DNA from: Candidatus Falkowbacteria bacterium
GTDB lineage: Bacteria; Patescibacteriota; Patescibacteriia; Patescibacteriales; WJLG01
Direction: 5' to 3'
NCBI GenBank assembly: GCA_963747695.1
Contig: CAVVFV010000010.1
Span: 261,618-325,617, forward strand
Length of the DNA: 64,000 nt
The notes beneath the pieces were generated by a model. It had not been told where the DNA came from. It worked only from the letters and a program-made list of their open reading frames with translations, and ran no database searches. Made by a program: the position numbers and the translations under genes. Shown here in pieces: positions 2,515-60,632 of the stretch (its first letter is position 1; the number at the start of each line of letters is the position of its first letter).

Positions 2515-2529
2515 AAAATTTTTAACTTT

Positions 2530-35496: not shown

Positions 35497-36819
35497 CTAC
35501 TTGGCGGGTTGCAGTTCGACAGCCAGCTCTTCCTTCAAAACCCGGAAGATCTCTGCCACCGGATCGGGCGACGTGAGAAACTGTCTGCCCCCGACGAAGA
35601 AATTGCCGCCGTACTCCTTTGCTCCGGCAAAAGTACCGGTCCGTTTTTGTTCATTCTTACCTGCTTCGGGAGAGCGAAGCGCGGGAATGACAATAACCGC
35701 TTCGGGATATTTCTTCCGCAGCATTGCCGCTTCTTCGGCTGAGCAGACAAAGCCGCGCGCCCCCGCGTCGTAGGCGATCTGCGCCAGCTTCTCCACTTGG
35801 GGCAGCGGCAGGCGACAGAAAATCTCCTCGGACTGCGGGCCAATTGAAGTCAGAACCGTTACTGCCAACACAATGGTCGGAGTTCCAGCCATTCCTTCGA
35901 CTGCAGCCTTGACCATTTCACCGGCACCGGAAGCGTGAACGGTAACTGCCCAAGGCGGCGTTTTCCGCAAACGGTTACAGTAATTTGTTATGGTGGGAGG
36001 AATGTCGTGCCACTTGGGGTCATACATTACCCGCGCGTAGACGGAAAGGTCAGCGATCAATTCGTTTACATTGTCAATCATGGAAAAATCATTAATTTTG
36101 GCAATGCAACCGCTTGGACGCAGACGATCAAGTAAGGAAAAAACTTCTTCCCGTGGCTTGCCGTCATAGGCAACGATCAAGGGATTGATCTTTTCGAGTT
36201 CCGGATCGCAGCGTTCCATCAGTTTGTTTTCGACGAGAAAACGACGCACATGATGCAACGTCATTCCGGCCCAGACTTCGACATCGCCGAAACCGGCTTC
36301 GGCCAGCTTCTTCTGCCAGCCCTGCTGACGGTCGACCAAAACTACGATCGCGACAATGACGGCTCCGACCGCCCGAAGTTCCGTAAGCGGCGCCAACTTC
36401 GAAGCGCCGTCGGTTACGACGTCGTCAACGATCACCACTCGGTCACCGCGTTTTATATCGCCGATCAGTTTCCCTTTTGTTACGCGTCCAAGCTTGGCCT
36501 CTTCCCTGATAGTTACCAGCGGTATGCCGGTGATGACGGAAAGATGGCCGGCCAGCGGACTGACCGCGTCCGGCACTTCGACGATCCGATCAACATGCAG
36601 CCGCCGCACCGGATTTTCGTATAGCCCGGCCAGGTAGCCGATCAGTTCAGGATGGCTGCGCATGTCGCGCAAGTTGATGTACACGTCAGTAGAGCCGCCT
36701 TTTTTGAGCGGCAAGCTCCGCTTGTTGTCCCACTTGATAATACCGGTTTTTACCATCTTCTGGCACGCCTCTTCCTGCTCGAGTTCGGCCAGCCAAGGAG
36801 AATCGCTGATCTTCTTCAT
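35497..36819 (-). CDS. Bifunctional orotate phosphoribosyltransferase / orotidine-5'-phosphate decarboxylase (UMP synthase-like fusion)
   Basis: N-terminal PRTase motif VVIVDDVVTDGAS. The C-terminal half has DPKWHDIP and OMP-decarboxylase-like motifs. The Met at 36819 is preceded by an AAAGGG RBS. Confidence 0.75.
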   Translation of the reverse strand: MKKISDSPWLAELEQEEACQKMVKTGIIKWDNKRSLPLKKGGSTDVYINLRDMRSHPELIGYLAGLYENPVRRLHVDRIVEVPDAVSPLAGHLSVITGIPLVTIREEAKLGRVTKGKLIGDIKRGDRVVIVDDVVTDGASKLAPLTELRAVGAVIVAIVVLVDRQQGWQKKLAEAGFGDVEVWAGMTLHHVRRFLVENKLMERCDPELEKINPLIVAYDGKPREEVFSLLDRLRPSGCIAKINDFSMIDNVNELIADLSVYARVMYDPKWHDIPPTITNYCNRLRKTPPWAVTVHASGAGEMVKAAVEGMAGTPTIVLAVTVLTSIGPQSEEIFCRLPLPQVEKLAQIAYDAGARGFVCSAEEAAMLRKKYPEAVIVIPALRSPEAGKNEQKRTGTFAGAKEYGGNFFVGGRQFLTSPDPVAEIFRVLKEELAVELQPAK

Positions 36820-36931
36820 ATCAACCCTTTCGTTAAGGTGAATATTAGTTATGCGTGTTAAAAAAGTACATTCCAATCATCACAATTTATCCGATAATTA
36901 CAACAAAGTCAATAAGTTGAAAAAGGTGTCG

Positions 36932-37399
36932 TTATTTTTTCAAGATGATATTTTCACCAAGACTTATTCCCATTTTTTTAACCAGACCTCCGTTAACTTC
37001 CAAAACGTATTTCGCCGGGGCGGCTGATTGATAGGTCGGACAGGGGTCAGCGGTGCAGGGTAAAAAATTATTTTTAAGATCGACGATCTTTTGGTCGGCC
37101 GAGATGAAAATCATATCTAGGGGGATCAAAGTATTCTTCATCCAGAAGGATTGGATCGACTCTTGGGGAAAAATAAATAGCATGCCGGAATCGGCCGGCA
37201 ACGACGGGCGATACATCAAGCCTCTAGACCATTGGGCCGGAGTCTTAGCCAATTCAGCGTGAATGATAAAATTCGGGTGGCTCGCCGACAAAACATCGAT
37301 CGTCTTAGCTTTATAGAAAAATAAAAACAAATAGGCCGCGCCGGCGGCGATAATTATCAGGCTGAAAAAGATTATAAAACTCCTGTTTATAACTTTCAT
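36932..37399 (-). CDS. DUF192-family protein
   Basis: GLMYR..L....GMLF.F......FWMKNT..PLD..F motif pattern with an N-terminal TM anchor. Confidence 0.7.
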   Translation of the reverse strand: MKVINRSFIIFFSLIIIAAGAAYLFLFFYKAKTIDVLSASHPNFIIHAELAKTPAQWSRGLMYRPSLPADSGMLFIFPQESIQSFWMKNTLIPLDMIFISADQKIVDLKNNFLPCTADPCPTYQSAAPAKYVLEVNGGLVKKMGISLGENIILKK

Positions 37400-37485
37400 A
37401 TCAACATAATTACTCGGTAGGAACGCGATACCTTGCGTTCTACAGCCGACGTTTCAATACCCAAGGAACGCAAAGTATTGCGTTC

Positions 37486-38382
37486 CTACGAATTAATAAA
37501 TGGATTTGGTTGATTAAAATCCGGCAAAAATATTTCGCCCGCTTCCGGCTCCTGTGTCCAGCCATTCTCCAGTCCAAGTTCAATTTTTTTCTTTTCCGCC
37601 GCCGCGATTTCTTCGGGCGATATTTGCCGGCTCAATTCCGGAAATTCGGCCGCGCGATTCACCCCGCCTTTTCCGGAAAGGGAGGGGTAAACCGGGAAAT
37701 ACTGGCTCATCAAACTCAAATGGATTTTTTTATCAATAGCGGCGATCTTTTCCAGCGCAGAAAAAGTATTGGGCAAATTATTCGGCAATATCATGTGCCG
37801 AATGATCAAACCTTTTTTGGCCAAGCTATTATCATCAACAGCCAATAAACCAACTTGCCGATACATTTCCCTGATCGCCTTATCCGCCACCTCGGAATAC
37901 TTTGGCGCGTGCGAATATTTCGCCGCCGCGACATCGTCCCCATATTTAAAATCGGGGAGATAAATATCAATCAACCCTGCTAAATCTTTAATCGCCTCGA
38001 CCGATTCATAAGCGTTGGAATTCCAAGCCAGCGGAATTTTTAATCCTTTTTCTTTGGCCAGAACAATCGCCTGCTTTATTTCCCGCCGCCACGGTGTGGG
38101 AGTCACTAAATCAATATTAGCCGCTCCCTGCTTTTGCAGATCCAACATTATTTGTGCCAATTCTTCGACCGAATATTCTTTGCCCAAATTTTCCCAACTG
38201 ATCTGCCAATTCTGGCAAAAAACGCAATGCAAATTACAGCCGGAAAAGAATATCGTCCCCGCTCCGAATTTCTCCCCTCCTTCCGAAGGAGGGGTTTGGG
38301 GGTGGTTTGCCTGTCCGACTAGCGGCGGTTCCTCGCCGAAATGCTTGCCGAACCAAGCAATTTTGATTTTTCTTTCAGCCAT
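37486..38382 (-). CDS. Radical SAM protein (PflX/PflA-like), carrying two palindrome-encoded in-frame inserts
   Basis: GCNLHCVFCQNWQIS CxxxCxxC motif. The inserts PPSEGGEKF and SLSGKGGVNRA coincide with GC-rich palindromes. Confidence 0.75.
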   Translation of the reverse strand: MAERKIKIAWFGKHFGEEPPLVGQANHPQTPPSEGGEKFGAGTIFFSGCNLHCVFCQNWQISWENLGKEYSVEELAQIMLDLQKQGAANIDLVTPTPWRREIKQAIVLAKEKGLKIPLAWNSNAYESVEAIKDLAGLIDIYLPDFKYGDDVAAAKYSHAPKYSEVADKAIREMYRQVGLLAVDDNSLAKKGLIIRHMILPNNLPNTFSALEKIAAIDKKIHLSLMSQYFPVYPSLSGKGGVNRAAEFPELSRQISPEEIAAAEKKKIELGLENGWTQEPEAGEIFLPDFNQPNPFINS

Positions 38383-38429
38383 ACTTAAAGCTTACAACAA
38401 AAGGCGTTCCAATGAAACGCCCTCTGCCC

Positions 38430-38795
38430 TTGTCGGGGTACTGGGATTCGGTCACGGCTCTCGTCGGCTTCCGCCTCCTCGGCCGCGAACCCCGCCTCGC
38501 GATGCGGCTCGCCAAATGCTCGCCACATATCGCTCCGGCATTCAAATCCCATCGCGAGCCAAGCAGTTGGCTCGCTTTACCCCGACAAAAAAACGGCTTA
38601 GGCCGTTTTTCCTTGTCGGGGTACTGGGATTCGGTCACGGCTCTCGTCGGCTTCCGCCTCCTCGGCCGCGAACCCCGCCTCGCGATGCGGCTCGCCAAAT
38701 GCTCGCCACATATCGCTCCGGCATTCAAATCCCATCGCGAGCCAAGCAGTTGGCTCGCTTTACCCCGACAAAAAAACGGCTTAGGCCGTTTTTCC
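38430..38795 (-). repeat. Tandem array (2 x 183 bp, identical) of tRNA-linked GC-rich element, subfamily 1
   Basis: Period 183 bp measured at 38430, 38613 and 38796. Each unit carries tRNA-Pro acceptor strands, a T-loop copy and a terminator-like hairpin. Confidence 0.85.
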
Positions 38796-38798
38796 TTG

Positions 38799-38884
38799 TC
38801 GGGGTACTGGGATTCGAACCCAGAACCTTCCACCTACGTTCCGAGGCGGAACTTCGGTGGACGCAGCACGCACCTTCGTGAAAA
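38799..38884 (-). pseudogene. tRNA-Pro 3' half (anticodon stem 3' strand to acceptor end) with a 38-nt hairpin insertion
   Basis: Minus strand reads GGTGCGTG + TCCACC...GGTGGA hairpin + AGGTT-CTGGG-TTCGAAT-CCCAG-TACCCCG-A. No matching 5' half adjoins it. Confidence 0.7.
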
Positions 38885-38961
38885 TGGTCGGGGTACTGGG
38901 ACTCGAACCCAGAACCTCACGCACCCGAAGCGTGCGCCATAGCCAATTAGGCCATACCCCG
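38885..38961 (-). tRNA. tRNA-Pro(CGG), CCA encoded
   Basis: Acceptor CGGGGTA/TACCCCG, anticodon arm CACGC-TTCGGGT-GCGTG, T arm CTGGG-TTCGAGT-CCCAG, A73, CCA. Confidence 0.9.
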
Positions 38962-39028
38962 ACCATTTTCGCGAATTTAAAAAATAATGTAAGCACCTTT
39001 ACCCGCCGAAGCGATTAGCGAAGGCGGG

Positions 39029-39064
39029 CGAAGCGTGCGCCATAGCCAATTAGGCCATACCCCG
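39029..39064 (-). pseudogene. tRNA-Pro 5' fragment (first 36 nt)
   Basis: 36/36 identical to 38926-38961. It then diverges into the hairpin CCCGCC...GGCGGG. Confidence 0.75.
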
Positions 39065-39188
39065 AAAAAACAATTAAAAATTAAAAATGAAAAGTTAAAA
39101 ATTTAATATATAATTTCAGCCTACAGTATAAACAGTCTGTCGTCAATAAAAATATTTTTAATTTTGCATTTTTAATTTTTAATTGTTT

Positions 39189-39273
39189 TGGTGGGCATGG
39201 AGAGACTCGAACTCTCAAGGATTGCTCCGTACGCACCTGAAGCGTATGCGTCTACCAATTTCGCCACATGCCC
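39189..39273 (-). tRNA. tRNA-Leu(CAG), CCA encoded
   Basis: Acceptor GGGCATG/CATGCCC, anticodon arm TACGC-TTCAGGT-GCGTA, long variable arm, T arm GAGAG-TTCGAGT-CTCTC, A73, CCA. Confidence 0.9.
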
Positions 39274-39382
39274 GAAATAGTATCTCGTATTTAGTATTTG
39301 GTATTTCGTATATAAATTTTCTGTCTGGCTCGTTCTTCTTCAAATAAAATTAAAAATCAAAAAACTGATTTTCGATTTTATG

Positions 39383-39455
39383 AGCGGGAGACGGGGCTTG
39401 AACCCGCTGCCTCAACCTTGGGAAGGTCGCGCTCTACCAGATGAGCTACTCCCGC
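39383..39455 (-). tRNA. tRNA-Gly(CCC)
   Basis: Acceptor GCGGGAG/CTCCCGC, anticodon arm CGACC-TTCCCAA-GGTTG, T loop TTCAAGC, U73. No encoded CCA. Confidence 0.9.
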
Positions 39456-39501
39456 CTCTCATCGTCTTGTTTGCTCGTCCGCCTTGGGCGGAGGAAGCAA
39501 A

Positions 39502-39526
39502 CATTCTACCGTTGAATTACTCCCGC
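39502..39526 (-). pseudogene. tRNA 5' fragment (Gly-like acceptor plus D arm)
   Basis: Minus strand reads GCGGGAGTAATTCAACGGTAGAATG, followed by the palindrome TTTGCT..TCCGCC-CAAG-GCGGA..AGCAAA. No T arm. Confidence 0.6.
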
Positions 39527-39569
39527 CGTCATTCGCCGGAACCTCAGCGAAGGCGAACTTCGCCAAATC

Positions 39570-40253
39570 CTAATTATCAATATGTTTAATTCCAATTTCC
39601 GGAAAAACAACCTCTTCGCCAGTCGAAAGCAGAAAAGCCACGGTTGCCGCAACTTCTTTCGTATCTAAGGCATTATTCATGTCTTTTTTTAAGCCCATCT
39701 TTTCAAACATCTTTGTTTTCATTTTTCCCAAATAGAGACCAGTAACCCTAATATGATATTTTGATAATTCCTCCTGAATCGATTTAGTAAATCCGGTTAT
39801 TGCCCATTTGGAGGCGGTGTAAACGGATCTATCCGCCTTGGCGTAAAGCCCTGCTTGCGAAACGACATTGATGATAAAACCATTCTTTTGTTTTTTCATA
39901 ATCGGCACAACTTTTTGAGTAAGCAAAATTGTTCCTGTCGTGTTAACAGCGATTACTTCTTTAATTTTTTCGGCGTCACTTTGGTCAATGCCTCCCTCAA
40001 TCCAAAGCCCGGCATTATTTATCAAGCAATCAATTCTCTGATATTTTTTCTCAATTGCGCTTACCGCCGATTCAATTTCCTTTTCACTGGAAATATCACA
40101 AACCAAAAAATCGCATCCTAATTCTTTGGCCGTCTGTTTCAACTTGACGCTGTCATGAGCAAGCAAAATAACACTGTAATCGGATGCCAATTTTTGGGCA
40201 ATCTCCCTGCCTAGCCCATCGCTACCTCCGGAAATGACGACTACTTTTTTCAT
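39570..40253 (-). CDS. Short-chain dehydrogenase/reductase (SDR) family oxidoreductase
   Basis: SGGSDGLG cofactor motif, NNAG, and YTASKWA catalytic YxxxK. Confidence 0.85.
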   Translation of the reverse strand: MKKVVVISGGSDGLGREIAQKLASDYSVILLAHDSVKLKQTAKELGCDFLVCDISSEKEIESAVSAIEKKYQRIDCLINNAGLWIEGGIDQSDAEKIKEVIAVNTTGTILLTQKVVPIMKKQKNGFIINVVSQAGLYAKADRSVYTASKWAITGFTKSIQEELSKYHIRVTGLYLGKMKTKMFEKMGLKKDMNNALDTKEVAATVAFLLSTGEEVVFPEIGIKHIDN

Positions 40254-40272
40254 AGATAATAATATTATCTTG

Positions 40273-40343
40273 TGGACCTAGGCGGAGTCGAACCGCCGCC
40301 TCTGCAATGCGAATGCAACGTCATACCGCTAGACTATAGGCCC
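40273..40343 (-). tRNA. tRNA-Ala(CGC)
   Basis: Acceptor GGGCCTA/TAGGTCC with G3:U70, anticodon loop TTCGCAT, T arm GGCGG-TTCGACT-CCGCC, A73. No encoded CCA. Confidence 0.9.
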
Positions 40344-40351
40344 GCAAACTT

Positions 40352-40476
40352 TGTGGACAATACTGGGCTCGGTCACAGCTCTCGCTCGCTTCCGCTCGCT
40401 CGGCCGCGACCCCGCCTCGCCGTCTTGCTCGCCAAATAGCTCGCAAGACATGGCTCCGGCATTCGAGCCCTGCCCC
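40352..40476 (-). repeat. tRNA-linked GC-rich element, subfamily 1 (solo copy belonging to tRNA-Val)
   Basis: Its first 21 nt (TTGTGGACAATACTGGGCTCG) equal the tRNA-Val 3' end at 40511-40531. The core is collinear with the 183-bp units. It ends in GGCATTCGAGCCC, an inverted tRNA-Val T loop. Confidence 0.8.
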
Positions 40477-40513
40477 TAAAATATTTATCTGACGAAGGTC
40501 AGTAAATATTTTG

Positions 40514-40587
40514 TGGACAATACTGGGCTCGAACCAGTGACCTCTGCAATGTGAATGCAGCGCTCTAACCAACTGAGCTAATTGTCC
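40514..40587 (-). tRNA. tRNA-Val(CAC)
   Basis: Acceptor GGACAAT/ATTGTCC, anticodon arm CTGCA-TTCACAT-TGCAG, T arm ACTGG-TTCGAGC-CCAGT, A73. Confidence 0.9.
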
Positions 40588-40607
40588 GAAACGCCAGAAA
40601 ATTAGCG

Positions 40608-40670
40608 TGTCGGGGTACTGGCCCCGCCAGCCGGCGGGGTCTCCGCTTCGCTCCGAGAATCTCACCACTC
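40608..40670 (-). repeat. Degenerate element remnant ending in a tRNA-Pro-type 3' end
   Basis: TGTCGGGGTACTGG (as in the 38430 array) is followed by the GC-rich hairpin CCCCGCC-AGCC-GGCGGGG. Confidence 0.5.
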
Positions 40671-40675
40671 ACTTG

Positions 40676-40746
40676 TCGGGCTGCGCGGAATCGAACCGCG
40701 GCTACATGCACCCCATGCACGCGTACTACCATTATACGACAGCCCG
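40676..40746 (-). tRNA. tRNA-Pro(GGG)
   Basis: Acceptor CGGGCTG/CAGCCCG, anticodon arm CGTGC-ATGGGGT-GCATG, T arm CGCGG-TTCGATT-CCGCG, A73. Confidence 0.85.
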
Positions 40747-40760
40747 CTATTAAGGCGCGC

Positions 40761-40806
40761 CTGTCCCGCCTTCACGGCGGGATACTACCGCTATACTATA
40801 CCCCGC
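40761..40806 (-). pseudogene. tRNA 5' fragment (GCGGGGTA acceptor plus D-arm-like) fused to a GC hairpin
   Basis: Minus strand reads GCGGGGTATAGTATAGCGGTAGTA, then TCCCGCC-GTGAA-GGCGGGA. No T arm or 3' acceptor strand adjoins it. Confidence 0.55.
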
Positions 40807-40932
40807 CCCTCACCATTTTTCACAAAAAAATCGAACGCCTCCGTAAACTAAAAACGACCTTTTGAATAGTTTACGAAAAATGGTGAGGGGTCGTTTTTAA
40901 TACTATAAAACTTTACCAAAAAAAGCAAGAAA

Positions 40933-41094
40933 TCAGTCTCTTGACTGGAAAAAATCGCAATGGCCGTTGGGCGGGACTTCGCATTTGGCCTCCGAGCAGG
41001 CTCCGGTTTCCGGATCAAAACCGGTGCAACGGGAACATTCATTGTCGGGATTGGACCAGTCGGCGACAAAATTGGCTTCGATTTCGTGAGACAT
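40933..41094 (-). CDS. Small cysteine-rich protein (53 aa), HiPIP-like C-x2-C...C...C pattern
   Basis: Hand-translated as MSHEIEANFVADWSNPDNECSRCTGFDPETGACSEAKCEVPPNGHCDFFQSRD. Below the 60-aa ORF-track cutoff. The competing 73-aa ORF in another frame looks non-protein-like. Confidence 0.45.
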   Translation of the reverse strand: MSHEIEANFVADWSNPDNECSRCTGFDPETGACSEAKCEVPPNGHCDFFQSRD

Positions 41095-41125
41095 ACTTAT
41101 TATCAGATTAATTTTTAATACTGTA

Positions 41126-42154
41126 TTATTGCGCGGTCGAGGTTGCCTCCGGCGTTAAAATTTTGAAACTCTGGGCCATGCCTTCCAGAACCAGATTGAT
41201 CTTTAAGCGATCAAACTGCTTGATCCCCTGTTCGGGAGGGTAATTCAAAATATCGTTGGAATGGATGATCGACTCGACGGCATAGCATTGGCCATTGTAA
41301 ACAGTCCGGTAACTGGTGACATCGTAATAATTTCCAACGCCGGCGTCGGTGAAAATTATTTTGGTGAAATTGCGGTTGCCGATTATCACCTTGGTGGTGG
41401 TGGCAAAATTGCCAAAGTCCGAGATCAGGCAATTCTTGACCGCGCCGGGATCGGCGCTTGTCCCCACCGAAAATTTGGCTTCGCCGAAATTAGTTCCCGG
41501 CATAAATGAGCGGGGAATATTCACGACCGCCAGCAATAGACCAGTGCTGGAGGAATTATAACTCCAGTCTTGGGAAAAACCGATTTCTCCGCCGGAGAGA
41601 ACGAATTGGCTGGGATGGGAAAAAGAGAAAGTATTTTCCTCGTCCGTATATGTATTGATATCTCCGGAAGATGTCTGGTTGCCGGCCACGCAATTGGTAT
41701 AGGTAGTAATATCTTTTTGCGTCAAGAAAGCGTTATCGCCCTTGCTTACCAGAACCGTCGTCCCCGATTCATAGCGGATCCCCGAACCGGACCTAACTTG
41801 CGGCAAGGTCGTCGTACTGCCGTCTTTAAAGATCAGACTGACCGAACTCGAACCGTAATTAGCGCGCAGCACGCCCTCCTGACAAAAATATTTGATGATA
41901 TTAGAACTGGTGGCCGCCGTGCAATCCTCTTCCCAAGGCCGCAGGCATTTCTGCTTGACTTCGCACCAAGAATATCCGGCTGAACCGATACACCCGTGCG
42001 CGTCACGGTCATTGCCGACTAATGATCCGGCTGGAGTAGGATTACTCATCTTTTCCAGCCAGGGGAATTTTTGCCGGTTAAGATACAGATATCCGCCGCC
42101 GACAACCAAGACAATAATAATGATCAAAACAAAGGTTAAAAATTTATCTTTCAT
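41126..42154 (-). CDS. Membrane-anchored exported protein with MliC-like (lysozyme-inhibitor fold) domain
   Basis: N-terminal TM anchor. The central segment LRANYGSSSVSLIFKDGSTTTLPQVRSGSGIRYESG..VLVSKGDNAFL matches the MliC pattern. Confidence 0.55.
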   Translation of the reverse strand: MKDKFLTFVLIIIIVLVVGGGYLYLNRQKFPWLEKMSNPTPAGSLVGNDRDAHGCIGSAGYSWCEVKQKCLRPWEEDCTAATSSNIIKYFCQEGVLRANYGSSSVSLIFKDGSTTTLPQVRSGSGIRYESGTTVLVSKGDNAFLTQKDITTYTNCVAGNQTSSGDINTYTDEENTFSFSHPSQFVLSGGEIGFSQDWSYNSSSTGLLLAVVNIPRSFMPGTNFGEAKFSVGTSADPGAVKNCLISDFGNFATTTKVIIGNRNFTKIIFTDAGVGNYYDVTSYRTVYNGQCYAVESIIHSNDILNYPPEQGIKQFDRLKINLVLEGMAQSFKILTPEATSTAQ

Positions 42155-42214
42155 AGGTTTAATGATGTGTTTAATTACGCCTCAATTATAGCAGCTTTTA
42201 GATTTAAAAAACAA

Positions 42215-42814
42215 CCTGACGCAGGTCGGACTGATTCGGTCACGGCTCTCACTCGCTTCCGCCTCCTCGGCCTCGACCCCGGCTCGCGGTGCTCGGCGCC
42301 GGAATGCGCCTCGCACAACGCTGCGCCTTTCGAATCCTCTCATTTTCCATTCTAACTTAAAAGACCTGACGCAGGTCGGACTGATTCGGTCACGGCTCTC
42401 GTCGGCTTCCGCCTCCTCGGCCTCGACCCCGGCTCGCGGTGCTCGGCGCCGGAATGCGCCTCGCACAACGCTGCGCCTTTCGAATCCTCTCATTTTCCAT
42501 TCTAACTTAAAAGACCTGACGCAGGTCGGACTGATTCGGTCACGGCTCTCGTCGGCTTCCGCCTCCTCGGCCTCGACCCCGGCTCGCGGTGCTCGGCGCC
42601 GGAATGCGCCTCGCACAACGCTGCGCCTTTCGAATCCTCTCATTTTCCATTCTAACTTAAAAGACCTGACGCAGGTCGGACTGATTCGGTCACGGCTCTC
42701 GTCGGCTTCCGCCTCCTCGGCCTCGACCCCGGCTCGCGGTGCTCGGCGCCGGAATGCGCCTCGCACAACGCTGCGCCTTTCGAATCCTCTCATTTTCCAT
42801 TCTAACTTAAAAGA
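42215..42814 (-). repeat. Tandem array (4 x 150 bp) of tRNA-linked GC-rich element, subfamily 1 (tRNA-Ser copy)
   Basis: Period 150 bp measured at 42215, 42365, 42515, 42665 and 42815. Copies 2-4 are identical. A 40-nt run is identical to the 183-bp units. Each unit carries an inverted 15-nt copy of the tRNA-Ser T-loop/acceptor region. Confidence 0.85.
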
Positions 42815-42843
42815 CCTGACGCAGGTCAGGTCTTTTAAGTTAG

Positions 42844-42930
42844 CGGAGATGAGAGGATTCGAACCTCTGATGCCCTTACGGACATACCGCATTTCGAGTG
42901 CGGCCCATTCGACCACTCTGGCACATCTCC
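42844..42930 (-). tRNA. tRNA-Ser(CGA)
   Basis: Acceptor GGAGATG/CATCTCC, anticodon arm CCGCA-CTCGAAA-TGCGG, long variable arm, T arm AGAGG-TTCGAAT-CCTCT, G73. Confidence 0.9.
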
Positions 42931-43124
42931 ATTTTTTAATTACAAATTATGAATTATTAATTATAAATTTTATGGATATTAGTTAATCTACTATTTAAAC
43001 TACAAAGAGTCAATATTGCTAATTTGCCAAAATTTTTTAATACCCGCTTTTGACAAAATTCGACGCGGGTGATAATTTAAAGCGTTGATCTTTGCTTGAC
43101 TGAACATTTTCCTGGAGGTAAAAA

Positions 43125-43448
43125 ATGTATTATTACAGTAAGAAACATCACAAAAAAATAAATGTCAGGGTAAGGGAAGGTTTACGGATGATCGTTGAGG
43201 AAGCGACCGGTAATTTTTCATTCGCTTATCCGAAAAATTCGCCGCTCGCGGAGGCAACACTGTTCTGGGAAACAGCCAGCAATACGGCAGTCATGAAACC
43301 GGAACAATTGAGCAACGGCAAAATCAATTATTTAACGGCGGCCAATCTCTGCGCAAATCTGTCTGGCTTAACGGCTTTCCCGGAAGAATTCAAAGAGAAA
43401 GACAAATATCGTGAATTCGTTTTTGCCAAAACGTCCAATAATCTTTGA
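43125..43448 (+). CDS. Hypothetical protein
   Basis: 107-aa ORF preceded by GGAGG. No recognised family. Confidence 0.4.
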   Translation: MYYYSKKHHKKINVRVREGLRMIVEEATGNFSFAYPKNSPLAEATLFWETASNTAVMKPEQLSNGKINYLTAANLCANLSGLTAFPEEFKEKDKYREFVFAKTSNNL

Positions 43449-43467
43449 AGCCAACCAATCATAACGC

Positions 43468-44964
43468 TCATTGAACCTTCCGCCCGCCAATCGGAAGGTT
43501 TTTATTTTTTTCAGAAATTAAAGCCAGCATGGCGACCAGAATCCAAAACAATGCAGCTAAATCATTTTTAAAATACGGCACATCGACCAAGCCATGGACA
43601 ACAATCACAATCATTGCCGCTAATAAACCAAGATGTAAATATTTATATTCATTTCCCTTAATTGAAAATTTAAAGTTGACAATTGAAAATTTTATTATTA
43701 TCCATGCAAAAATAAATAATCCCGCCAAACCCAGCTCGCTCCAAAAATTCAAAATGATGTCGTGCGGATATAAATATATTTCCACCGGCTGCCAAGTGCG
43801 GGCGCGAACGGCGGCGCTGTTAATCGTATCCTGATGAAAATTAGGATCCGTACCATCATCATAAAAAAAACCTTTCTGGTGATACGGCGCCACGGCAGTT
43901 TGATAATTCCCCAAACCCACGCCTAAAATTTTTGCGTTGCCGTTTAACATCATCAAAGTTTCCTTCCATTGCAAGCGGCGGATCTGACCGGAAAGATCAT
44001 GGGCCGTAATTTTTCTGATGAGCGGTTTCTCGATCGGTGGATAAAAATAGATTCCCGCGCTGGCCACCAGGACAATGATGATAGCCGCGATCCGCGCTTT
44101 TTTATTGGCGTATAAACAAAAAATAAAGGCGGCGGCGGCCAGACCGATCAGGGCGCCGTCGGATTTGGCAAAATAAATCGCGGCTAATGACAAAAGGATG
44201 ATAAACCCCAAAAAGGCTTTGGATAAACCGATCGCAGAAATTCTTTCTTTTGGTAGCGGATAACAGATTTTCTCCTCAAACGGCGTGCATTCCTTTTTGG
44301 CCGGCAGTAATAAGAAGCTGAACAGGACCGGAATGATGGGGCCAAGATACAGGCCGACCGCGTTGGGATAGCCGAAAAACGAGACCGCCCGGCGCGTGGC
44401 TGCCGCGGCCCAGAGCGGATTATCAATCCCGATCCCGGTGAACTTTTGAAAAATCGCGTAGGCGGAAACAAGCAAGGCGCCAACCGCCAAGCTCAAGCCG
44501 ATTTTATTCAAACCATTCTTGCCGGGAAGAATATTGAGGATCAAGACATACAACAAGGCTGGTTCAAAAAAATAGGCCTTCCACAAACCCAAAGAAGCCG
44601 CAGAGAAATGAGGCAGACTGGCCGCGAAAAGTGAAACGATCAACAATAAAATGATTTCAATCCCAAAAGGATATTTTCGCCGGCCTTCCGCGCTGCCGCC
44701 CTTTCGCCACGGGCTGTTCATTAAAAAATCTTTAACTGAATATTTACCGTGCAAAAAATCCCAAAACTTTGTTTTGAAAACAAACCAACAAAAAAAAGCG
44801 ATCAGGATCATCGCCTCCAAAAGCGTCAGCGGGACTAATATTTTGAATCTAACCAAATACAAAGGCAGGCCGGCGATGACGAGCATCACGGCCCAGTCTG
44901 ACCTTTTGAGCGACAAGACAAAAAAGGCGAGTAAAAATATGGCCAAAAATATTGCGTAACTCAT
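43468..44964 (-). CDS. O-antigen ligase/polymerase-like (Wzy_C family) polytopic membrane protein
   Basis: About 12 TM helices with a central periplasmic loop, typical of O-antigen ligase-like proteins. Confidence 0.5.
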   Translation of the reverse strand: MSYAIFLAIFLLAFFVLSLKRSDWAVMLVIAGLPLYLVRFKILVPLTLLEAMILIAFFCWFVFKTKFWDFLHGKYSVKDFLMNSPWRKGGSAEGRRKYPFGIEIILLLIVSLFAASLPHFSAASLGLWKAYFFEPALLYVLILNILPGKNGLNKIGLSLAVGALLVSAYAIFQKFTGIGIDNPLWAAAATRRAVSFFGYPNAVGLYLGPIIPVLFSFLLLPAKKECTPFEEKICYPLPKERISAIGLSKAFLGFIILLSLAAIYFAKSDGALIGLAAAAFIFCLYANKKARIAAIIIVLVASAGIYFYPPIEKPLIRKITAHDLSGQIRRLQWKETLMMLNGNAKILGVGLGNYQTAVAPYHQKGFFYDDGTDPNFHQDTINSAAVRARTWQPVEIYLYPHDIILNFWSELGLAGLFIFAWIIIKFSIVNFKFSIKGNEYKYLHLGLLAAMIVIVVHGLVDVPYFKNDLAALFWILVAMLALISEKNKNLPIGGRKVQ

Positions 44965-47997: not shown

Positions 47998-49404
47998 TTA
48001 CTTCCCTGTCCGCCTTGGGCGGATGACTTCTGCCTTAAACAGATCGCCCCGTTCCTTATAATTCTTAAAACAGCCGAAACTGGCGCAGCCGGTCGAGAGC
48101 AGAACGATGTCGCCGAGTTCAGATTCTTGTTTGGCGATTCTAACAGCGTCTTTCATATTATTGACTACTCGTAACCCATAACTCGTAACCCGTAACTCTT
48201 TTTTTAACCGCTCGGACCCTTTACCTTTGAATAATATTAAAAATTTTACTCGCTTATTTATTTCTTGGGCGAATTTTTTGAAATCCGAGCCTTTGTTGGC
48301 GCCGCCGGCCAAGAGAATGATATTTTTCTTTCCCGCGAATGATTTCAAAGCGATAACGCTGACATCCGGCACCGTGGCAAAACTGTCATCAAAATAGCGC
48401 ACGCCGTTAATTTCGGCGACAAATTCCAGGCGATGCGGCAAGCCTTTGAAATTTTTCACTGTCCGAGCCACGATTATCGGCTTGATCTTCAAAATCTTAG
48501 CCACCGCAACTGCGGCGGCGATATTCTCCTTATTATGTTTGCCGATCAAATTGCTGACTAATTCCGATTTTCCGTAAACAATAACCTTTGCCGGAGTTCG
48601 GACGCCGTAATCCTTAATCTGCAAATCTTCATTGACAACTAGATAATCTTTCTTGGCCTGATGAGCGAAAATATTCGCTTTGGCGGTCCAATAATCTTTC
48701 ATCGATTTGTGATAATTCGGATTGTGCGGATCAGCTGGAGCCAGATGTTCTTTGAATAAATTAGTTACCACGGCGATGTGTGGGCTAATATCCAAATCTT
48801 CCAATTGAAAGCTGGATAATTCCAAAACAACATAATCATCCGGCTTAATTTTCTCGATAAATTCAAACGGCGCATTGCCAATATTCCCACCGAGAAAAAT
48901 ATGGCGCTTTCGTAGGAACGCAAGATTTTGCGTTCCTACCTTAAGAATTTCATAAATCAGCGACGAGGTTGTCCCCTTGCCTTTCGATCCGGTGACGCCA
49001 ATGATATTTTTCGTCGGACATAATTGAAAAAATAATTTCATCGGGCTGGATATTTCCACGCCGGCTTTCTTAGCCTTGAGCAGATTGGGATTAAAAAGCG
49101 GGTAGCCGGGCGAACGAAAAATAATGTCAAAATCCGCCAGATGCTTATCGTAATCCTTGCCGGTCATCAAATTTATCCCCGGCATTTTATTCTTCCGCGC
49201 CAATTCCTTAATCTCCAAAAACCGATCGCCCAATTCCGCCGCCGATTTCGGATCGCAAACCGTAATATGCAACCCTTGCCCCGCCGCAGTCTCCGCCGCG
49301 TGACTGCGGCGCAATAAATATTTCACCAACGCCAAATTCTCCACCCCCAACCCGAGCATGGCAATCTTCTTATTCTGCAAAAATTTTAATTTATCCTTTA
49401 TCAT
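47998..49404 (-). CDS. murD: UDP-N-acetylmuramoylalanine--D-glutamate ligase
   Basis: GVTGSKGKGTT P-loop, Mur ligase middle and C-terminal domains. Carries two repeat-derived in-frame inserts. Confidence 0.85.
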   Translation of the reverse strand: MIKDKLKFLQNKKIAMLGLGVENLALVKYLLRRSHAAETAAGQGLHITVCDPKSAAELGDRFLEIKELARKNKMPGINLMTGKDYDKHLADFDIIFRSPGYPLFNPNLLKAKKAGVEISSPMKLFFQLCPTKNIIGVTGSKGKGTTSSLIYEILKVGTQNLAFLRKRHIFLGGNIGNAPFEFIEKIKPDDYVVLELSSFQLEDLDISPHIAVVTNLFKEHLAPADPHNPNYHKSMKDYWTAKANIFAHQAKKDYLVVNEDLQIKDYGVRTPAKVIVYGKSELVSNLIGKHNKENIAAAVAVAKILKIKPIIVARTVKNFKGLPHRLEFVAEINGVRYFDDSFATVPDVSVIALKSFAGKKNIILLAGGANKGSDFKKFAQEINKRVKFLILFKGKGSERLKKELRVTSYGLRVVNNMKDAVRIAKQESELGDIVLLSTGCASFGCFKNYKERGDLFKAEVIRPRRTGK

Positions 49405-49460
49405 GCGTTTTTCTTACTTCTTAATTCCTACTTCTTACTTTCTTGTCCGCCTTGGGCGGG

Positions 49461-58349: not shown

Positions 58350-58736
58350 ATGAACAAAATCGTCAAGTATTTAATGATCGTGGCCATGGTTTTGGCCATC
58401 GCCGTACCGGTCCTTTCCATGCCAGCTTTGGCAACAACTCTGGATCTGGGCACCAGCTATGTCAACAATCAGGTAACCGGTCTGGGCACCAATGATCCGC
58501 GCACCATCGCGGGTATCGTCATCCGCATCGCCTTGGGTTTCCTCGGCGTTCTGGCGGTAATCATCATCCTGATCGGCGGTTTCAAATGGATGACCGCGGC
58601 CGGCAACGAAGAGCAGATCGAAGATGCCAAGAAAGTTTTGATGGCCGGAATCATCGGCTTGGTCATTATCCTGGCCTCCTGGGGTATCGCCACCTTTGTC
58701 CTCACCAGCCTACTCACGGCGACGACAGGCTCTTAG
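58350..58736 (+). CDS. TrbC/VirB2-like (T4SS_pilin-type) small membrane protein, paralogue 1
   Basis: Signal peptide, variable region, then the conserved LG.LGV....I.GG..WM.A.G.E..I..AK......IGL.I.... Confidence 0.7.
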   Translation: MNKIVKYLMIVAMVLAIAVPVLSMPALATTLDLGTSYVNNQVTGLGTNDPRTIAGIVIRIALGFLGVLAVIIILIGGFKWMTAAGNEEQIEDAKKVLMAGIIGLVIILASWGIATFVLTSLLTATTGS

Positions 58737-58852
58737 TAATTTTTCCAAAACTAGTTTTAGGAAAATTGGTGGGTCTTATTCCTAAAGTAAGACTCACTGC
58801 CTTGGACAGAAATATTTTGTGTTCAGAGCAGTAAAAAATTCATCATAAAAAT

Positions 58853-59314
58853 ATGTCGGTAAAAAAAATCAGCTTGTTTTTTCTGGCCCCGCTTCTTCTT
58901 TTAGGAATTTTTGTGTTATTTTCTACTGCCCAAGCTTCCGCTCCTGACCACAGATTAATTGCTCAAACCACCCAAGGAGACGTTAACAATGCCGCAGATA
59001 AACTCAATTCTCTCCAGGATACCACCCAGGGAAATTATGGCCTGGATGAAGCCTCGCAAAACACACCCTTGATTGATAACACGCCGCAGCAGATCGTCGG
59101 CACGGTAATCGGCGCCGCCCTTTCTTTATTGGGCGTGATTTTCTTTTTACTGATCATCTACGGCGGCCTGCGTTGGATGCTCGCCCAAGGCAATGAGCAG
59201 GAAGTGGAAAAAGCCAAAGAGGTGCTGATCGCCGCGGTAATCGGCCTTATTATCGTCCTCTCCGCCTACGCCATCACCACCTTCATCGGCACGCAATTGA
59301 CCGGCGGCAAATAA
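58853..59314 (+). CDS. TrbC/VirB2-like small membrane protein, paralogue 2
   Basis: Same C-terminal two-helix module (IYGGLRWMLAQGNEQEVEKAKEVL). Confidence 0.7.
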   Translation: MSVKKISLFFLAPLLLLGIFVLFSTAQASAPDHRLIAQTTQGDVNNAADKLNSLQDTTQGNYGLDEASQNTPLIDNTPQQIVGTVIGAALSLLGVIFFLLIIYGGLRWMLAQGNEQEVEKAKEVLIAAVIGLIIVLSAYAITTFIGTQLTGGK

Positions 59315-59372
59315 AATCTCCGCTCTTAAGATTATTACACCAAATATTTTAACCTAATCATCAAGCCCCCCG

Positions 59373-59738
59373 ATGTTTATTCTTTCCCCCCTTGTTTCGC
59401 TCCACAGCAAACTCATCGCCTACAGTTTTGTGGAAAATAGCGGCGTGAATGAAACCGCCAACCAGGCCGGTTTCTCCGGCCCGTCCGGCCAAGCCGGCGT
59501 CACCTCCATCACCGGCACGGTTATCAGTGTGATTTTGTCGTTGCTCGGCGTGATTTTTTTAGCCCTAACCATCTACGGCGGAATAATGTGGATGACAGCG
59601 GAAGGCAAAGAAGAGCGGATCGAGAAAGCCAAGAATATCATTATCAACAGCGTAATCGGACTGGTTATCGTGATGGCCGCCTATGCCATCAGCTACTTTG
59701 TCATTAATGCTTTAACCCAAGCGCCGCCGACAGTATGA
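59373..59738 (+). CDS. TrbC/VirB2-like small membrane protein, paralogue 3
   Basis: Same module (IYGGIMWMTAEGKEERIEKAKNII). The N-terminus is atypical and the start is uncertain. Confidence 0.6.
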   Translation: MFILSPLVSLHSKLIAYSFVENSGVNETANQAGFSGPSGQAGVTSITGTVISVILSLLGVIFLALTIYGGIMWMTAEGKEERIEKAKNIIINSVIGLVIVMAAYAISYFVINALTQAPPTV

Positions 59739-60130: not shown

Positions 60131-60159
60131 CGATTATTCCTTCAAAATATTTCAATTGT

Positions 60160-60552: not shown

Positions 60553-60632
60553 TTACGAATGCCCGGCGCCTAACAAAAGAGATGCCCGAGGAGGAAGAAA
60601 TATCACTTATTGATTAATATATCATTAAAAAT

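What the first reader, a model, noticed from the sequence alone, without database searches (positions are those of the whole stretch)
38799..39064. Complete tRNA-Pro(CGG) gene nested between the 5' and 3' halves of another tRNA-Pro gene
Seen in sequence, on the minus strand, in order:
- 39064 to 39029 is the first 36 nt of a tRNA-Pro, from the acceptor through the anticodon position. It is 36/36 identical to the start of the complete gene 103 bp downstream.
- The hairpin CCCGCC-TTCGCTAATCGCTTCG-GCGGG and an AT-rich stretch.
- The complete tRNA-Pro(CGG), with encoded CCA.
- Immediately afterwards, a 3' half starting at the anticodon-stem 3' strand (GGTGCGTG). It carries a 38-nt hairpin insertion at the variable-loop position and has a different T loop (TTCGAAT rather than TTCGAGT).

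The outer halves share complementary acceptor strands (CGGGGTA/TACCCCG). The tandem 183-bp elements copy the outer (GAAT) version, not the inner gene.

Inference: a resident tRNA-Pro was split in its anticodon loop, the other classical integrase crossover site, by a ~150-bp insertion that brought its own CCA-encoding replacement tRNA. Alternatively it arose by partial duplication or gene conversion.
Basis: partly seen in the sequence, partly recalled or inferred. Interest (0 to 1): 0.7.

Follow-up and report, generated by a model that had tools for sequence, protein, structure and literature searches.

The report
Proline tRNA nested inside split copy
In this ultra-small (Patescibacteria) bacterium, a complete working proline tRNA gene sits inside the anticodon arm of an older copy of the same gene; the arrangement is real, recurs in related genomes, and is conserved far better than junk DNA should be, but nothing shows that the outer pieces are ever rejoined.

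Summary
On the minus strand: a 36-nt 5' piece (39064-39029), a 154-nt insert holding a complete CCA-encoding tRNA-Pro(CGG) (38961-38885), then the matching 3' piece (38874-38799) with a 38-nt hairpin after the anticodon stem.

It is not an assembly artefact. The same architecture occurs in L022/L036/L037 and, more diverged, in L017.

Five syntenic relatives (four organisms) have a simple tRNA-Pro(CGG) at this position. Their T loop and trailer match the outer pieces, so the outer gene is the resident one and the inner one the newcomer. Flanks argue against simple tandem duplication.

It is not a group I or bulge-helix-bulge intron. No recombinase gene was detected in the 64 kb.

The non-tRNA parts differ by about 7% between the window and L022, against 49% at neutral sites. 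The unit is therefore either constrained or recently exchanged.

Best reading: DNA-level insertion or replacement at the anticodon loop, with the unit then carried as a block, possibly using the tRNA halves as homology arms.

The locus belongs to a wider pattern in these genomes: tRNA remnants with GC hairpins at loop positions, and a covarying ~113-nt element, absent from Rfam, copied after tRNA 3' ends.

The parts
39029..39064 (-). Outer (resident) tRNA-Pro(CGG), 5' piece: acceptor 5' strand, D arm, anticodon-stem 5' strand, loop through the second anticodon base (standard position 35)
   Evidence: 36/36 identical to the inner gene's start. The spacer in front of it resembles, by eye, the one in front of the simple gene of L027.
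39002..39028 (-). H1 hairpin (CCCGCC-16 nt-GGCGGG) inserted exactly at 35/36. Together with TAAA (39001-38998) it forms a 31-nt module.
   Evidence: Conserved in L022 and L017 with 2 compensatory pairs. The same module sits at 35/36 of a tRNA-Pro(GGG) 5' remnant in L009.
38993..39001 (-). TAAA + GGTGC. GGTGC equals tRNA positions 36-40, so this is the continuation of the 5' piece and the first copy of the junction repeat.
   Evidence: TAAAGG(T/C)GC is present in all nested loci and in L009. AAGGTGC also occurs at 38876-38870.
38962..38992 (-). AT-rich leader of the inner gene. Its last 14 nt (38975-38962) pair with the trailer.
   Evidence: Inverted repeat I4. The pairing is kept through 3 double changes in L017.
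38885..38961 (-). Inner complete tRNA-Pro(CGG), T loop TTCGAGT, encoded CCA. This is the presumed working gene.
   Evidence: ARAGORN. Rfam RF00005, 60.9 bits, E=1.2e-11.
38875..38884 (-). Trailer TTTTCACGAA. Together with ACCA it is complementary to the leader.
   Evidence: Identical in L022. The ACCATTTTCAC trailer is also present after tRNA-Pro(CGG) in L014.
38799..38874 (-). Outer tRNA-Pro(CGG), 3' piece: positions 36-43, hairpin insert, variable loop, T arm (TTCGAAT), acceptor 3' strand, A73
   Evidence: Its T loop and ACAAG trailer match the simple genes of L026/L028 and L027.
38829..38866 (-). Hv: 38-nt hairpin inserted between positions 43 and 44 of the outer 3' piece, with a 3x3 GAA/GUA internal loop
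   Evidence: There is a compensatory A-U to U-A change in L022. L017 has a different hairpin at the same site with the internal loop flipped.
38770..38794 (-). Terminator-like hairpin AAAAACGGC-CTAA-GCCGTTTTTTT after the outer gene
   Evidence: Read from the sequence. Not called by the simple scan. L027 has a similar trailer and hairpin.
38616..38798 (-). 183-bp unit 1: terminator, inverted copy of the tRNA 3' end, hairpin with loop CAACTGCTTG, ~113-nt structured core, then a direct copy of the outer tRNA 3' end from mid T loop plus CAAGG
   Evidence: TRF period 183, 2.1 copies. Covariance model R1, 120.6 bits.
38433..38615 (-). 183-bp unit 2, same as unit 1

Best explanation
**What it is.** This is a DNA-level gene-within-a-gene.

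The last gene of a conserved Patescibacteria tRNA operon is Pro(GGG)-Val-Ala-Gly-Leu-Pro(CGG). Its final member, the resident tRNA-Pro(CGG), was broken in its anticodon arm. The breakpoint is 35/36, with GGTGC (positions 36-40) present on both sides.

The break was made by insertion of a small cassette: AT-rich leader, a complete tRNA-Pro(CGG) with CCA, and a short trailer. The inner gene is the working tRNA. The two outer pieces are the halves of the old gene, and each also carries a GC-rich hairpin at a loop or junction position (H1 at 35/36, Hv at 43/44).

**Shown**
- The outer pieces are the resident gene.
- The inner gene is the newcomer.
- The arrangement recurs in two lineages.
- It does not meet the features of a known intron type.

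**Inferred**
- The insertion came from recombination at the anticodon loop. This could be a tRNA-targeting recombinase acting in trans, or illegitimate or homology-facilitated recombination with incoming DNA.
- The whole unit is then inherited, and probably passed between related genomes, as a block. The conserved tRNA halves would serve as homology arms, much as intron-containing alleles spread.
- The outer pieces are not rejoined into a tRNA.
For: 1. **Comparative context.** Five syntenic relatives from four organisms (L011, L026, L027, L028/L029) carry one simple tRNA-Pro(CGG) between tRNA-Leu and the radical-SAM gene. Their T loop TTCGAAT (L026, L028) and trailer ACAAGAAAAA plus hairpin (L027) match the window's outer 3' piece. 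The window's spacer upstream of the 5' piece resembles L027's by eye.
2. **Not tandem duplication.** The inner leader and trailer are unlike the native flanks.
3. **Atypical CCA.** By eye, only 2 of the 11 tRNAs in the window encode CCA.
4. **Trailer seen elsewhere.** The same ACCATTTTCAC trailer follows tRNA-Pro(CGG) in L014, next to a displaced 3' fragment. L023 has the same flanks and an empty site.
5. **Recurrence.** The architecture recurs in L022/L036/L037 and in L017, which has a different operon context and whose relatives L016 and L021 lack it. H1, TAAAGGTGC, the GGTGC repeat and a hairpin at 43/44 are homologous across them.
6. **Block behaviour.** In window versus L022, the unit from the first base of the 5' piece to ACAAG is about 95% identical, while the adjoining spacers are unalignable. 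L022's upstream spacer resembles L014/L023, whereas the window's resembles L027.
7. **Remnants are common in this clade.** 5' remnants ending at position 35 occur in L006, L009 Pro(GGG) and the window's tRNA-Gly. 3' remnants occur in L014 and L007. L017 has layered remnants.
8. **Precedent for the breakpoint.** Viral contigs L031 and L033 show what reads as a tyrosine-integrase C-terminus (read from the sequence, not domain-tested), followed by a tRNA-Pro 3' half that begins at the anticodon-stem 3' strand.
Against: - No integrase, transposase or homing endonuclease was detected in the window.
- The insert is only 154 bp.
- The tRNA 26-mer, the inner trailer and the element core were not found in viral contigs.
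- There is no att-like repeat beyond GGTGC.
- The non-tRNA parts of the unit differ by about 7% between the window and L022 (my count). Four-fold degenerate sites of the adjacent gene differ by 49%. A decaying scar should not be this well kept unless it was exchanged recently.
- Helices keep pairing through double changes: 13 of 87 pairs.
- The inner T stem matches the host lineage in both lineages (CTGGG versus CCGAG). A transfer model therefore needs gene conversion between the inner and outer copies.
- 5'-only and 3'-only remnants elsewhere allow a two-event origin.
Confidence: 0.5

Rival explanations
1. Two separate events rather than one insertion. An upstream remnant (5' part plus H1) and a downstream displaced 3' half were left by different integrations or replacements at the same hot spot. 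They look like the two halves of one gene only because both break at the anticodon loop, which is the fixed crossover point.
For: - 5' remnants occur without any 3' remnant in L006, L009 (both Pro genes), L016, L021 and the window's tRNA-Gly.
- 3' remnants occur without a 5' remnant in L014 and L007.
- L017 carries an extra, older 5' remnant orthologous to those of L016 and L021, so events do stack up.
- L031 and L033 carry integrase-adjacent tRNA-Pro 3' halves.
Against: - The two pieces abut exactly, and the GGTGC overlap is the same in all three nested loci of two lineages.
- No tRNA-Pro(CGG) locus with H1 but without the 3' piece was found among about 30 loci.
- It needs an element that supplies a 5' half, which from my own knowledge is unusual.
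Confidence: 0.2
2. The architecture is a functional RNA. One transcript folds as a tRNA within a tRNA. RNase P and 3' processing release the inner tRNA. The outer halves, held together by the acceptor stem, anticodon stem and leader/trailer helix, would then act as a processing scaffold or tRNA mimic, or be ligated into a second tRNA-Pro-like species with a long extra arm.
For: - The predicted minimum-energy fold of all three loci is a nested cloverleaf.
- The window fold has z = -6.4, with 0 of 200 shuffles folding as well.
- The consensus fold has 13 of 87 pairs with compensatory changes, in the leader/trailer helix, H1 and Hv.
- Non-tRNA parts differ about 7% against 49% at neutral sites.
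- Conservation starts and stops at the outer tRNA ends.
- The only acceptor change in L022 gives a G-U pair.
- The GAA/GUA internal loop of Hv is kept, but flipped, in L017.
- All hairpin insertions seen in remnants lie at loop or junction positions.
Against: - No known bacterial pathway removes such an insert.
- The 5' exon would end in G and the insert in A or T.
- There is no bulge-helix-bulge motif, and the UUCG/CGAA helix of the window is absent in L017.
- Close relatives do without the arrangement.
- With Hv the joined product is not recognised as a tRNA.
- Only three independent sequences are available, two of them close.
- Leader/trailer pairing is also native to un-nested genes (L016, L021).
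- Palindrome-templated mutation can produce compensatory changes without selection (own knowledge).
Confidence: 0.15
3. Local tandem duplication or triplication of the tRNA gene, followed by deletions and gene conversion, without any foreign DNA.
For: - L016 shows a true tandem repeat of a 5' portion plus leader.
- Inner and outer T stems co-vary by lineage, which implies gene conversion.
Against: - The inner gene's leader and trailer do not resemble the native upstream spacer or trailer, as a tandem copy should.
- Two deletion end points would have to coincide at 35/36.
- The same H1 module occurs in a different isoacceptor's remnant (L009).
Confidence: 0.08
4. A self-splicing group I intron, which is known at 35/36 of Patescibacteria tRNAs, or an archaeal-type bulge-helix-bulge intron.
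For: Same phylum and same position 35/36 as the experimentally spliced introns of tRNA-Asn, Asp and Tyr (PMC13011429). The insertion is clean, with no long duplication.
Against: - No Intron_gpI hit at E<=1.
- 154 nt is shorter than known group I introns (own knowledge), and half of it is a tRNA.
- The 5' exon ends in G, not U, and the insert ends in A or T, not G. Both U and G are stated as consistent features in PMC13011429.
- No conserved bulge-helix-bulge motif.
Confidence: 0.02
5. Assembly artefact across near-identical repeats.
For: Short-read contigs do break at these repeats. L001 ends at the 183-bp units, and L037 starts inside the inner gene.
Against: The full nested order is assembled independently in the window, L022, L036 and L017. 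These carry lineage-specific differences that preserve the architecture.
Confidence: 0.01

Closest known systems
Partial tRNA gene copies left at integration sites of tyrosine-integrase elements (attL/attR in tRNA genes, with anticodon-loop and T-loop crossover classes). Background on such fragments: RNA Biol 2023, PMC9897764. From my own knowledge: Williams 2002 (NAR), and phage 16-3 integrating in a tRNA-Pro(CGG) gene.
   Same: - tRNA fragments bounded at the anticodon loop.
- The displaced 3' half keeps the native downstream flank.
- Empty sites exist in relatives.
- tRNA-Pro 3' halves lie next to integrase-like genes in viral contigs.
   Different: - There is no integrase or cargo.
- The insert is 154 bp and carries a whole tRNA instead of only the 3' part.
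- A 5' half is left upstream.
- The junction repeat is only GGTGC.
- The scar is conserved well below the neutral rate.
Group I introns at position 35/36 of tRNA-Asn/Asp/Tyr genes in Patescibacteria (Nakagawa et al., mSystems 2026, PMC13011429)
   Same: Same phylum, same unusual site (35/36), and a clean interruption of a tRNA gene that standard tools miss.
   Different: - No group I core.
- 154 nt long.
- G instead of U before the site.
- No terminal G.
- The insert contains a tRNA.
Disrupted tRNA genes of archaea and red algae: split tRNAs of Nanoarchaeum, multiple or non-canonical introns, permuted tRNAs (reviews PMC3978253 and PMC4090602)
   Same: - A tRNA gene in pieces.
- Complementary sequences next to the break.
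- Insertions at several loop positions.
- A nested cloverleaf fold is possible.
   Different: - The organism is a bacterium.
- No bulge-helix-bulge motif is present.
- No splicing endonuclease was seen in the window.
- The pieces flank an intact copy of the same tRNA, so no joining is needed for function.
Miniature non-autonomous elements and REP-like palindromes (MITEs, cis-mobilisable elements, REP/BIME arrays); named from my own knowledge
   Same: - Small GC-rich hairpins such as TCCGCC-N4-GGCGGA recur at many sites.
- Tandem arrays of a short structured unit occur.
- The units carry no coding capacity.
   Different: - Here they sit at loop positions of tRNA remnants.
- The arrays copy the 3' end of the upstream tRNA.
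- No cognate transposase was identified.

Membership tests
tRNA (inner gene) | Cloverleaf with a score above the Rfam RF00005 gathering threshold, and an anticodon called | tested here: met
   60.9 bits against a threshold of 29. ARAGORN calls tRNA-Pro(cgg).
tRNA (outer gene, as encoded) | Recognisable as an intron-containing or pseudo tRNA by a tRNA finder | tested here: not met
   ARAGORN intron and low-threshold modes call only the inner gene. The joined halves are called only after the 38-nt hairpin is also removed.
Group I intron | Catalytic core detectable with RF00028 | tested here: not met
   No hit at E<=1 in 36000-43500.
Group I intron | U as the last base of the 5' exon and G as the last base of the intron | tested here: not met
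   The 5' piece ends in G. The insert ends in A (window, L022) or T (L017). The rule is as stated in PMC13011429.
Bulge-helix-bulge (archaeal-type) intron | Two 3-nt bulges separated by a 4-bp helix at the two junctions, conserved among homologues | tested here: not met
   The window has a 4-bp UUCG/CGAA helix with one GGU bulge, but no second bulge or helix. The helix is absent in L017.
Bulge-helix-bulge (archaeal-type) intron | Splicing endonuclease and ligase encoded by the organism | not testable with these tools
   Only 64 kb of the genome is available. No such domain was found among the 60 ORFs of 110 aa or more scanned.
Integrase-mediated island in a tRNA gene | Presence/absence polymorphism, with the intact tRNA at the empty site in relatives | tested here: met
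   L011 and L026-L029 have a simple gene in the same synteny.
Integrase-mediated island in a tRNA gene | Recombinase gene in or next to the insert | tested here: not met
   The insert is 154 bp. No integrase or transposase domain was detected in the window.
Integrase-mediated island in a tRNA gene | Direct repeat of the att core at both junctions | tested here: inconclusive
   Only GGTGC is shared by both junctions in all three loci (AAGGTGC in the window). That is too short to tell from microhomology or a 5-bp target duplication.
Tandem duplication | The duplicated copy carries the native flank of the original | tested here: not met
   The inner leader and trailer differ from the native upstream spacer and trailer seen in L027 and L028.

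The most novel reading that the evidence does not exclude
These Patescibacteria may have a bacterial counterpart of the disrupted tRNA genes of archaea.

On this reading, the outer halves and their loop-positioned hairpin modules are parts of a functional RNA. After the inner tRNA is cut out, the halves stay paired through the leader/trailer helix. They are then either joined or used as a two-piece tRNA-like molecule with a long extra arm.

Such a molecule could be a second CGG-anticodon species with a class-II-like arm, or a tRNA mimic. The remnant-plus-hairpin structures and the ~113-nt covarying element copied after tRNA 3' ends would belong to the same RNA-level system.
Probability: 0.1. 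Interest if true: 0.9.

Novelty: new variant of a known kind. Interest (0 to 1): 0.6.

Why it matters
tRNA genes are classic landing sites for mobile DNA. The usual outcome is a restored gene plus a displaced 3' fragment next to a large island.

Here a tRNA gene is split in its anticodon and rescued by a complete copy carried inside the break. The whole package is kept with little change in genomes whose neutral sites are near saturation. This happens in bacteria with very small genomes, where junk is not expected to last.

If the unit is mobile, it behaves like an intron-style selfish insert that needs no splicing because it brings its own gene. If it is functional RNA, it would be the first tRNA-in-tRNA precursor in bacteria.

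In practice, such loci and the many hairpin-studded remnants around them can mislead tRNA annotation and genome-completeness estimates for Patescibacteria. They also break short-read assemblies.

Tried and rejected
- **Group I intron:** rejected on four tested features.
- **Bulge-helix-bulge intron:** the partial motif in the window is not conserved in L017.
- **Sigma-70 promoter in front of the 5' piece:** the TTGACG...TATACT I noticed has a spacer of about 10 nt and was not called. The scan found only weak 9/12 matches and no more sites than shuffles would explain.
- **Phage origin:** the tRNA 26-mer, the inner trailer and the element core have no exact match in viral contigs. A looser T-arm/acceptor pattern found integrase-adjacent tRNA-Pro 3' halves in L031 and L033, but these are GC-rich contigs of unknown host and do not share the cassette.
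- **Terminal inverted repeats or target duplication for a transposon:** the cassette ends are not inverted repeats. The only inverted repeat is the extended acceptor helix, and it is offset from the left junction.
- **A −35 role for TAAAGGTGC:** no resemblance to TTGACA.
- **Second nested-looking locus at tRNA-Ala(TGC):** relatives fetched through the neighbouring deaminase were not syntenic, so it could not be followed.
- **Recombinase, ligase or endonuclease genes:** Pfam scans of 60 ORFs of 110 aa or more in the window found none.
- **Covariance model of the tandem-unit core:** it found no copies beyond those already seen by HMM.
Full report
**1. Observation**

- The 36-nt 5' piece (39064-39029) is identical to the start of the complete gene (D5).
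- The hairpin is at 39028-39002.
- The complete tRNA-Pro(CGG) with CCA is at 38961-38885 (ARAGORN; Rfam tRNA 60.9 bits).
- The 3' piece starts 10 nt later, at GGTGCGTG (38874).
- A 38-nt hairpin (38866-38829) sits between positions 43 and 44.
- The outer T loop is TTCGAAT, and the outer gene ends at A73 (38799).
- The two 183-bp units that follow end in the outer version of the tRNA 3' end plus its trailer CAAGG.

Three details are added.
- The inner gene lies in an extended helix, with a 14-nt leader/trailer complement (I4).
- After the hairpin the 5' piece continues with TAAA+GGTGC (positions 36-40). GGTGC therefore flanks the cassette on both sides.
- The joined halves are a perfect tRNA-Pro(CGG) only if the 38-nt hairpin is also removed.

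**2. Organism and context**

An exact-pattern scan with the core of the tandem units hit only Patescibacteria and Saccharibacteria MAGs.

The window carries a tRNA operon, Pro(GGG)-Val(CAC)-Ala(CGC)-Gly(CCC)-Leu(CAG)-Pro(CGG). The same order is found in many metagenomic relatives.

Pfam scans of 60 ORFs of 110 aa or more in the window found housekeeping genes. They found no integrase, transposase, homing endonuclease, RtcB or splicing endonuclease.

**3. It is real and it recurs**

A metagenome scan with a 26-mer of the tRNA returned 21 loci.
- L022 has the same nested architecture in the same synteny, with the radical-SAM gene downstream, but without the 183-bp units.
- The L022-type locus is also assembled in an NCBI MAG (L036) and partly in a Logan contig (L037).
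- L017, from a lineage with a different arrangement (Pro(CGG) next to Pro(GGG)), has the same architecture with more divergence.

L017 shares these features: a 5' piece ending at position 35, a homologous hairpin plus TAAAGGTGC, a leader/trailer complement of different sequence, the inner tRNA, a 3' piece from position 36, and a different hairpin at 43/44.

Misassembly is therefore excluded for the architecture. It is not excluded for the unit copy number, because L001 breaks there.

**4. Which copy is resident**

Syntenic relatives were fetched through radical-SAM homologues, and L011 came from the 26-mer scan. All have a single uninterrupted tRNA-Pro(CGG).
- Their T loop is TTCGAAT in L026 and L028.
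- L027's trailer is ACAAGAAAAA followed by a terminator hairpin.
- The window's spacer upstream of the 5' piece resembles L027's by eye.

All three match the window's outer pieces. The inner gene differs: its T loop is TTCGAGT, it encodes CCA, its trailer is TTTTCAC, and its leader is foreign.

The outer gene is therefore the resident one and was interrupted. Simple tandem duplication is not supported, because the inner flanks are not copies of the native flanks.

The trailer ACCATTTTCAC also follows tRNA-Pro(CGG) in L014, next to a displaced 3' fragment. L023 has the same flanks and an empty site.

**5. Not an intron of a known kind**

Patescibacteria do have experimentally spliced group I introns at 35/36 of tRNA-Asn, Asp and Tyr. 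These have U before the site and G at the intron end (PMC13011429). Here four features fail:
- The base before the site is G.
- The insert ends in A or T.
- It is 154 nt long, and half of it is a tRNA.
- RF00028 gives no hit at E<=1.

The window has a 4-bp UUCG/CGAA helix with a GGU bulge at the 3' junction. There is no second bulge, and the helix is lost in L017.

**6. The unit is not decaying**

Between the window and L022:
- The radical-SAM gene is 82% identical in protein.
- Only 51% of its four-fold degenerate sites are identical.
- The other spacers of the operon are unalignable.
- The nested unit is about 95% identical from the first base of the 5' piece to ACAAG.
- By my count from the alignments, there are about 9 substitutions and 3 indels in roughly 125 nt of non-tRNA sequence, or about 7%.

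The upstream spacer of L022 resembles L014/L023, whereas the window's resembles L027. The unit therefore sits in a mosaic context.

Either the unit is under constraint, or it moved between lineages after they diverged. Transfer could use the tRNA halves as homology arms. It would need later gene conversion, because the inner and outer T stems are both CTGGG in the window lineage and both CCGAG in L017.

**7. RNA fold**

- All three loci fold, as minimum-energy structures, into a tRNA within a tRNA.
- The window fold has z = -6.4, with 0 of 200 shuffles folding as well.
- The consensus fold has 13 of 87 pairs with changes on both sides.

This is suggestive but weak, for three reasons.
- Only three sequences are available. 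Four of the covarying pairs are the T stems, which are constrained in any case.
- Leader/trailer pairing is also present in un-nested genes of L016 and L021.
- Palindrome-templated mutation can mimic compensation (own knowledge).

**8. A wider pattern**

A systematic search for partial copies near every tRNA in the fetched loci, followed by inspection, shows that such remnants are common in these genomes.

5' remnants upstream of complete tRNAs:
- L006 ends at position 35 and carries two hairpins.
- The L009 Pro(GGG) remnant has the same H1+TAAAGGTGC module at 35/36.
- L009 Pro(CGG), L016 (two in tandem) and L021 also have them.
- The window's tRNA-Gly locus has positions 1-35 of an L027-type gene, a 15-nt hairpin at 35/36, positions 36-43, and then a complete L028-type gene.
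- L017 has an additional older remnant orthologous to those of L016 and L021.

3' remnants with T-loop insertions occur in L014, L007, L008 and L036.

Every hairpin insertion I could place lies at a loop or junction: 7/8, D loop, 26/27, 35/36, 43/44 or T loop. That is about eleven placements and none inside a stem. My way of recognising remnants, by intact blocks, biases this count.

The tRNA loci are thus recurrent sites of insertion and replacement, and the remnants persist.

**9. The tandem units**

Each unit has, in order:
- a terminator;
- an inverted copy of the upstream tRNA's 3' end;
- a hairpin with loop CAACTGCTTG;
- a ~113-nt GC-rich core;
- a direct copy of the tRNA 3' end from mid T loop.

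Copies follow tRNA-Pro(CGG) (2), tRNA-Ser(CGA) (4, period 150) and tRNA-Val(CAC) (1) in the window. They also occur in L002, L003 (after tRNA-Ser), L004 (after the initiator tRNA, ending in ACCA), L011, L017 and L024.

The core has a consensus structure with 12 of 27 pairs changed on both sides. No shuffle out of 500 reached the observed value on four of five measures. It has no Rfam match. It is a structured nucleic acid of unknown role.

**10. Verdict**

The integrase mechanism is unproven. The insert is composite, and its unexpectedly strong conservation leaves open both recent exchange and an RNA-level role.

My confidence estimates are:

| Explanation | Confidence |
|---|---|
| DNA-level single insertion or replacement | 0.5 |
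| Two-event DNA origin | 0.2 |
| Functional RNA architecture | 0.15 |
| Tandem duplication | 0.08 |
| Known intron types | 0.02 |
| Assembly artefact | 0.01 |

Noticed in passing
window 42214-42827 (minus), after tRNA-Ser(CGA) 42843-42930: A second tandem array: 4.1 copies of a 150-bp unit sharing the same conserved core as the 183-bp units (GGCCGAGGAGGCGGAAGCCGACGAGAGCCGTGACCGAATC). Here the copy of the tRNA 3' end is truncated, whereas L011 keeps it in full.
   Followed up: partly
window 40362-40474 (minus), between tRNA-Val(CAC) and tRNA-Ala(CGC); also about 19511-19690, between tRNA-Arg(TCT) and tRNA-His: A single diverged copy of the same element ends in an exact copy of the tRNA-Val 3' end (40371-40354). 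After tRNA-Arg there is a longer, different GC-rich element that ends in a copy of the tRNA-Arg 3' end (19530-19511).
   Followed up: partly
element family: window, L002, L003, L004, L011, L017, L024: The ~113-nt core is a covarying structured element with no Rfam match. 12 of 27 pairs are compensatory, and no shuffle out of 500 reached the observed value on four of five measures. It is always placed after a tRNA and terminator and ends with that tRNA's 3' end. Together with the inverted copy upstream, it can form an acceptor/T-stem-like helix.
   Followed up: partly
window 56156-55887 (minus), around tRNA-Ala(TGC) 56011-55939: A second nested-looking locus. In order it has:
- the 5' acceptor and D arm of another tRNA-Ala-like gene (56156-56136);
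- a terminator-like hairpin with a T run (56045-56012);
- the complete tRNA-Ala;
- a trailer complementary to 17 nt of the leader;
- a 3' piece from about position 36 (55924-55887), whose acceptor strand pairs with the upstream piece, including G3:U70.
   Followed up: partly
window 39526-39469 (minus), upstream of tRNA-Gly(CCC) 39455-39382: Remnant of a different tRNA-Gly(CCC) allele, the type that is intact in L026, L027 and L022. It has positions 1-35, a 15-nt hairpin TCCGCCCAAGGCGGA exactly at 35/36, then positions 36-43. A complete tRNA-Gly of the L028 type follows.
   Followed up: partly
window 40805-40755 and 40621-40608 (minus), on either side of tRNA-Pro(GGG) 40746-40675: Upstream is a tRNA-like 5' piece (CGGGGTATAGTATAGCGGTAGTAT) followed by a hairpin, conserved in L012, L019 and L023. 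Downstream is a fragment ending in CCAGTACCCCGACA, which is the 3' end of tRNA-Pro(CGG), not of Pro(GGG). In L007, L008 and L036 the corresponding fragment carries a conserved double hairpin in the T-loop position.
   Followed up: partly
window 48009-48023 and 49446-49460; many tRNA remnants in L007, L008, L009, L021, L036: A small GC hairpin, TCCGCC-N4-GGCGGA, recurs at loop positions of tRNA remnants and at two intergenic sites flanking polA in the window. It behaves like a REP-like miniature palindrome.
   Followed up: partly
L021/L025, between tRNA-Pro(CGG) and tRNA-Pro(GGG): A small ORF resembling a GIY-YIG (URI) nuclease, judged from the sequence only, with an in-frame TGA. L017 has the structured element at the same place.
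   Followed up: no
L031 about 900-1311 and L033 (viral contigs): What reads as the 3' end of a tyrosine-recombinase gene, followed by a tRNA-Pro 3' half that starts at the anticodon-stem 3' strand. This looks like an attP. The host is unknown and the contigs are GC-rich.
   Followed up: partly
window 58350-61043 (+): Six consecutive small genes, each with a T4SS_pilin (PF18895) domain.
   Followed up: no
window 1960-4438 (minus): AMMECR1, Memo and a radical-SAM gene lie side by side, which is the AmmeMemoRadiSam arrangement. The radical-SAM gene next to the nested tRNA (37486-38382) is a different one, of the pyruvate formate-lyase activase type.
   Followed up: no
window 39382-40746 and relatives: The conserved operon holds only C34/G34 isoacceptors: Pro GGG, Val CAC, Ala CGC, Gly CCC, Leu CAG, Pro CGG. 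By eye, only tRNA-Leu and the inner tRNA-Pro encode CCA among the 11 tRNAs of the window.
   Followed up: no
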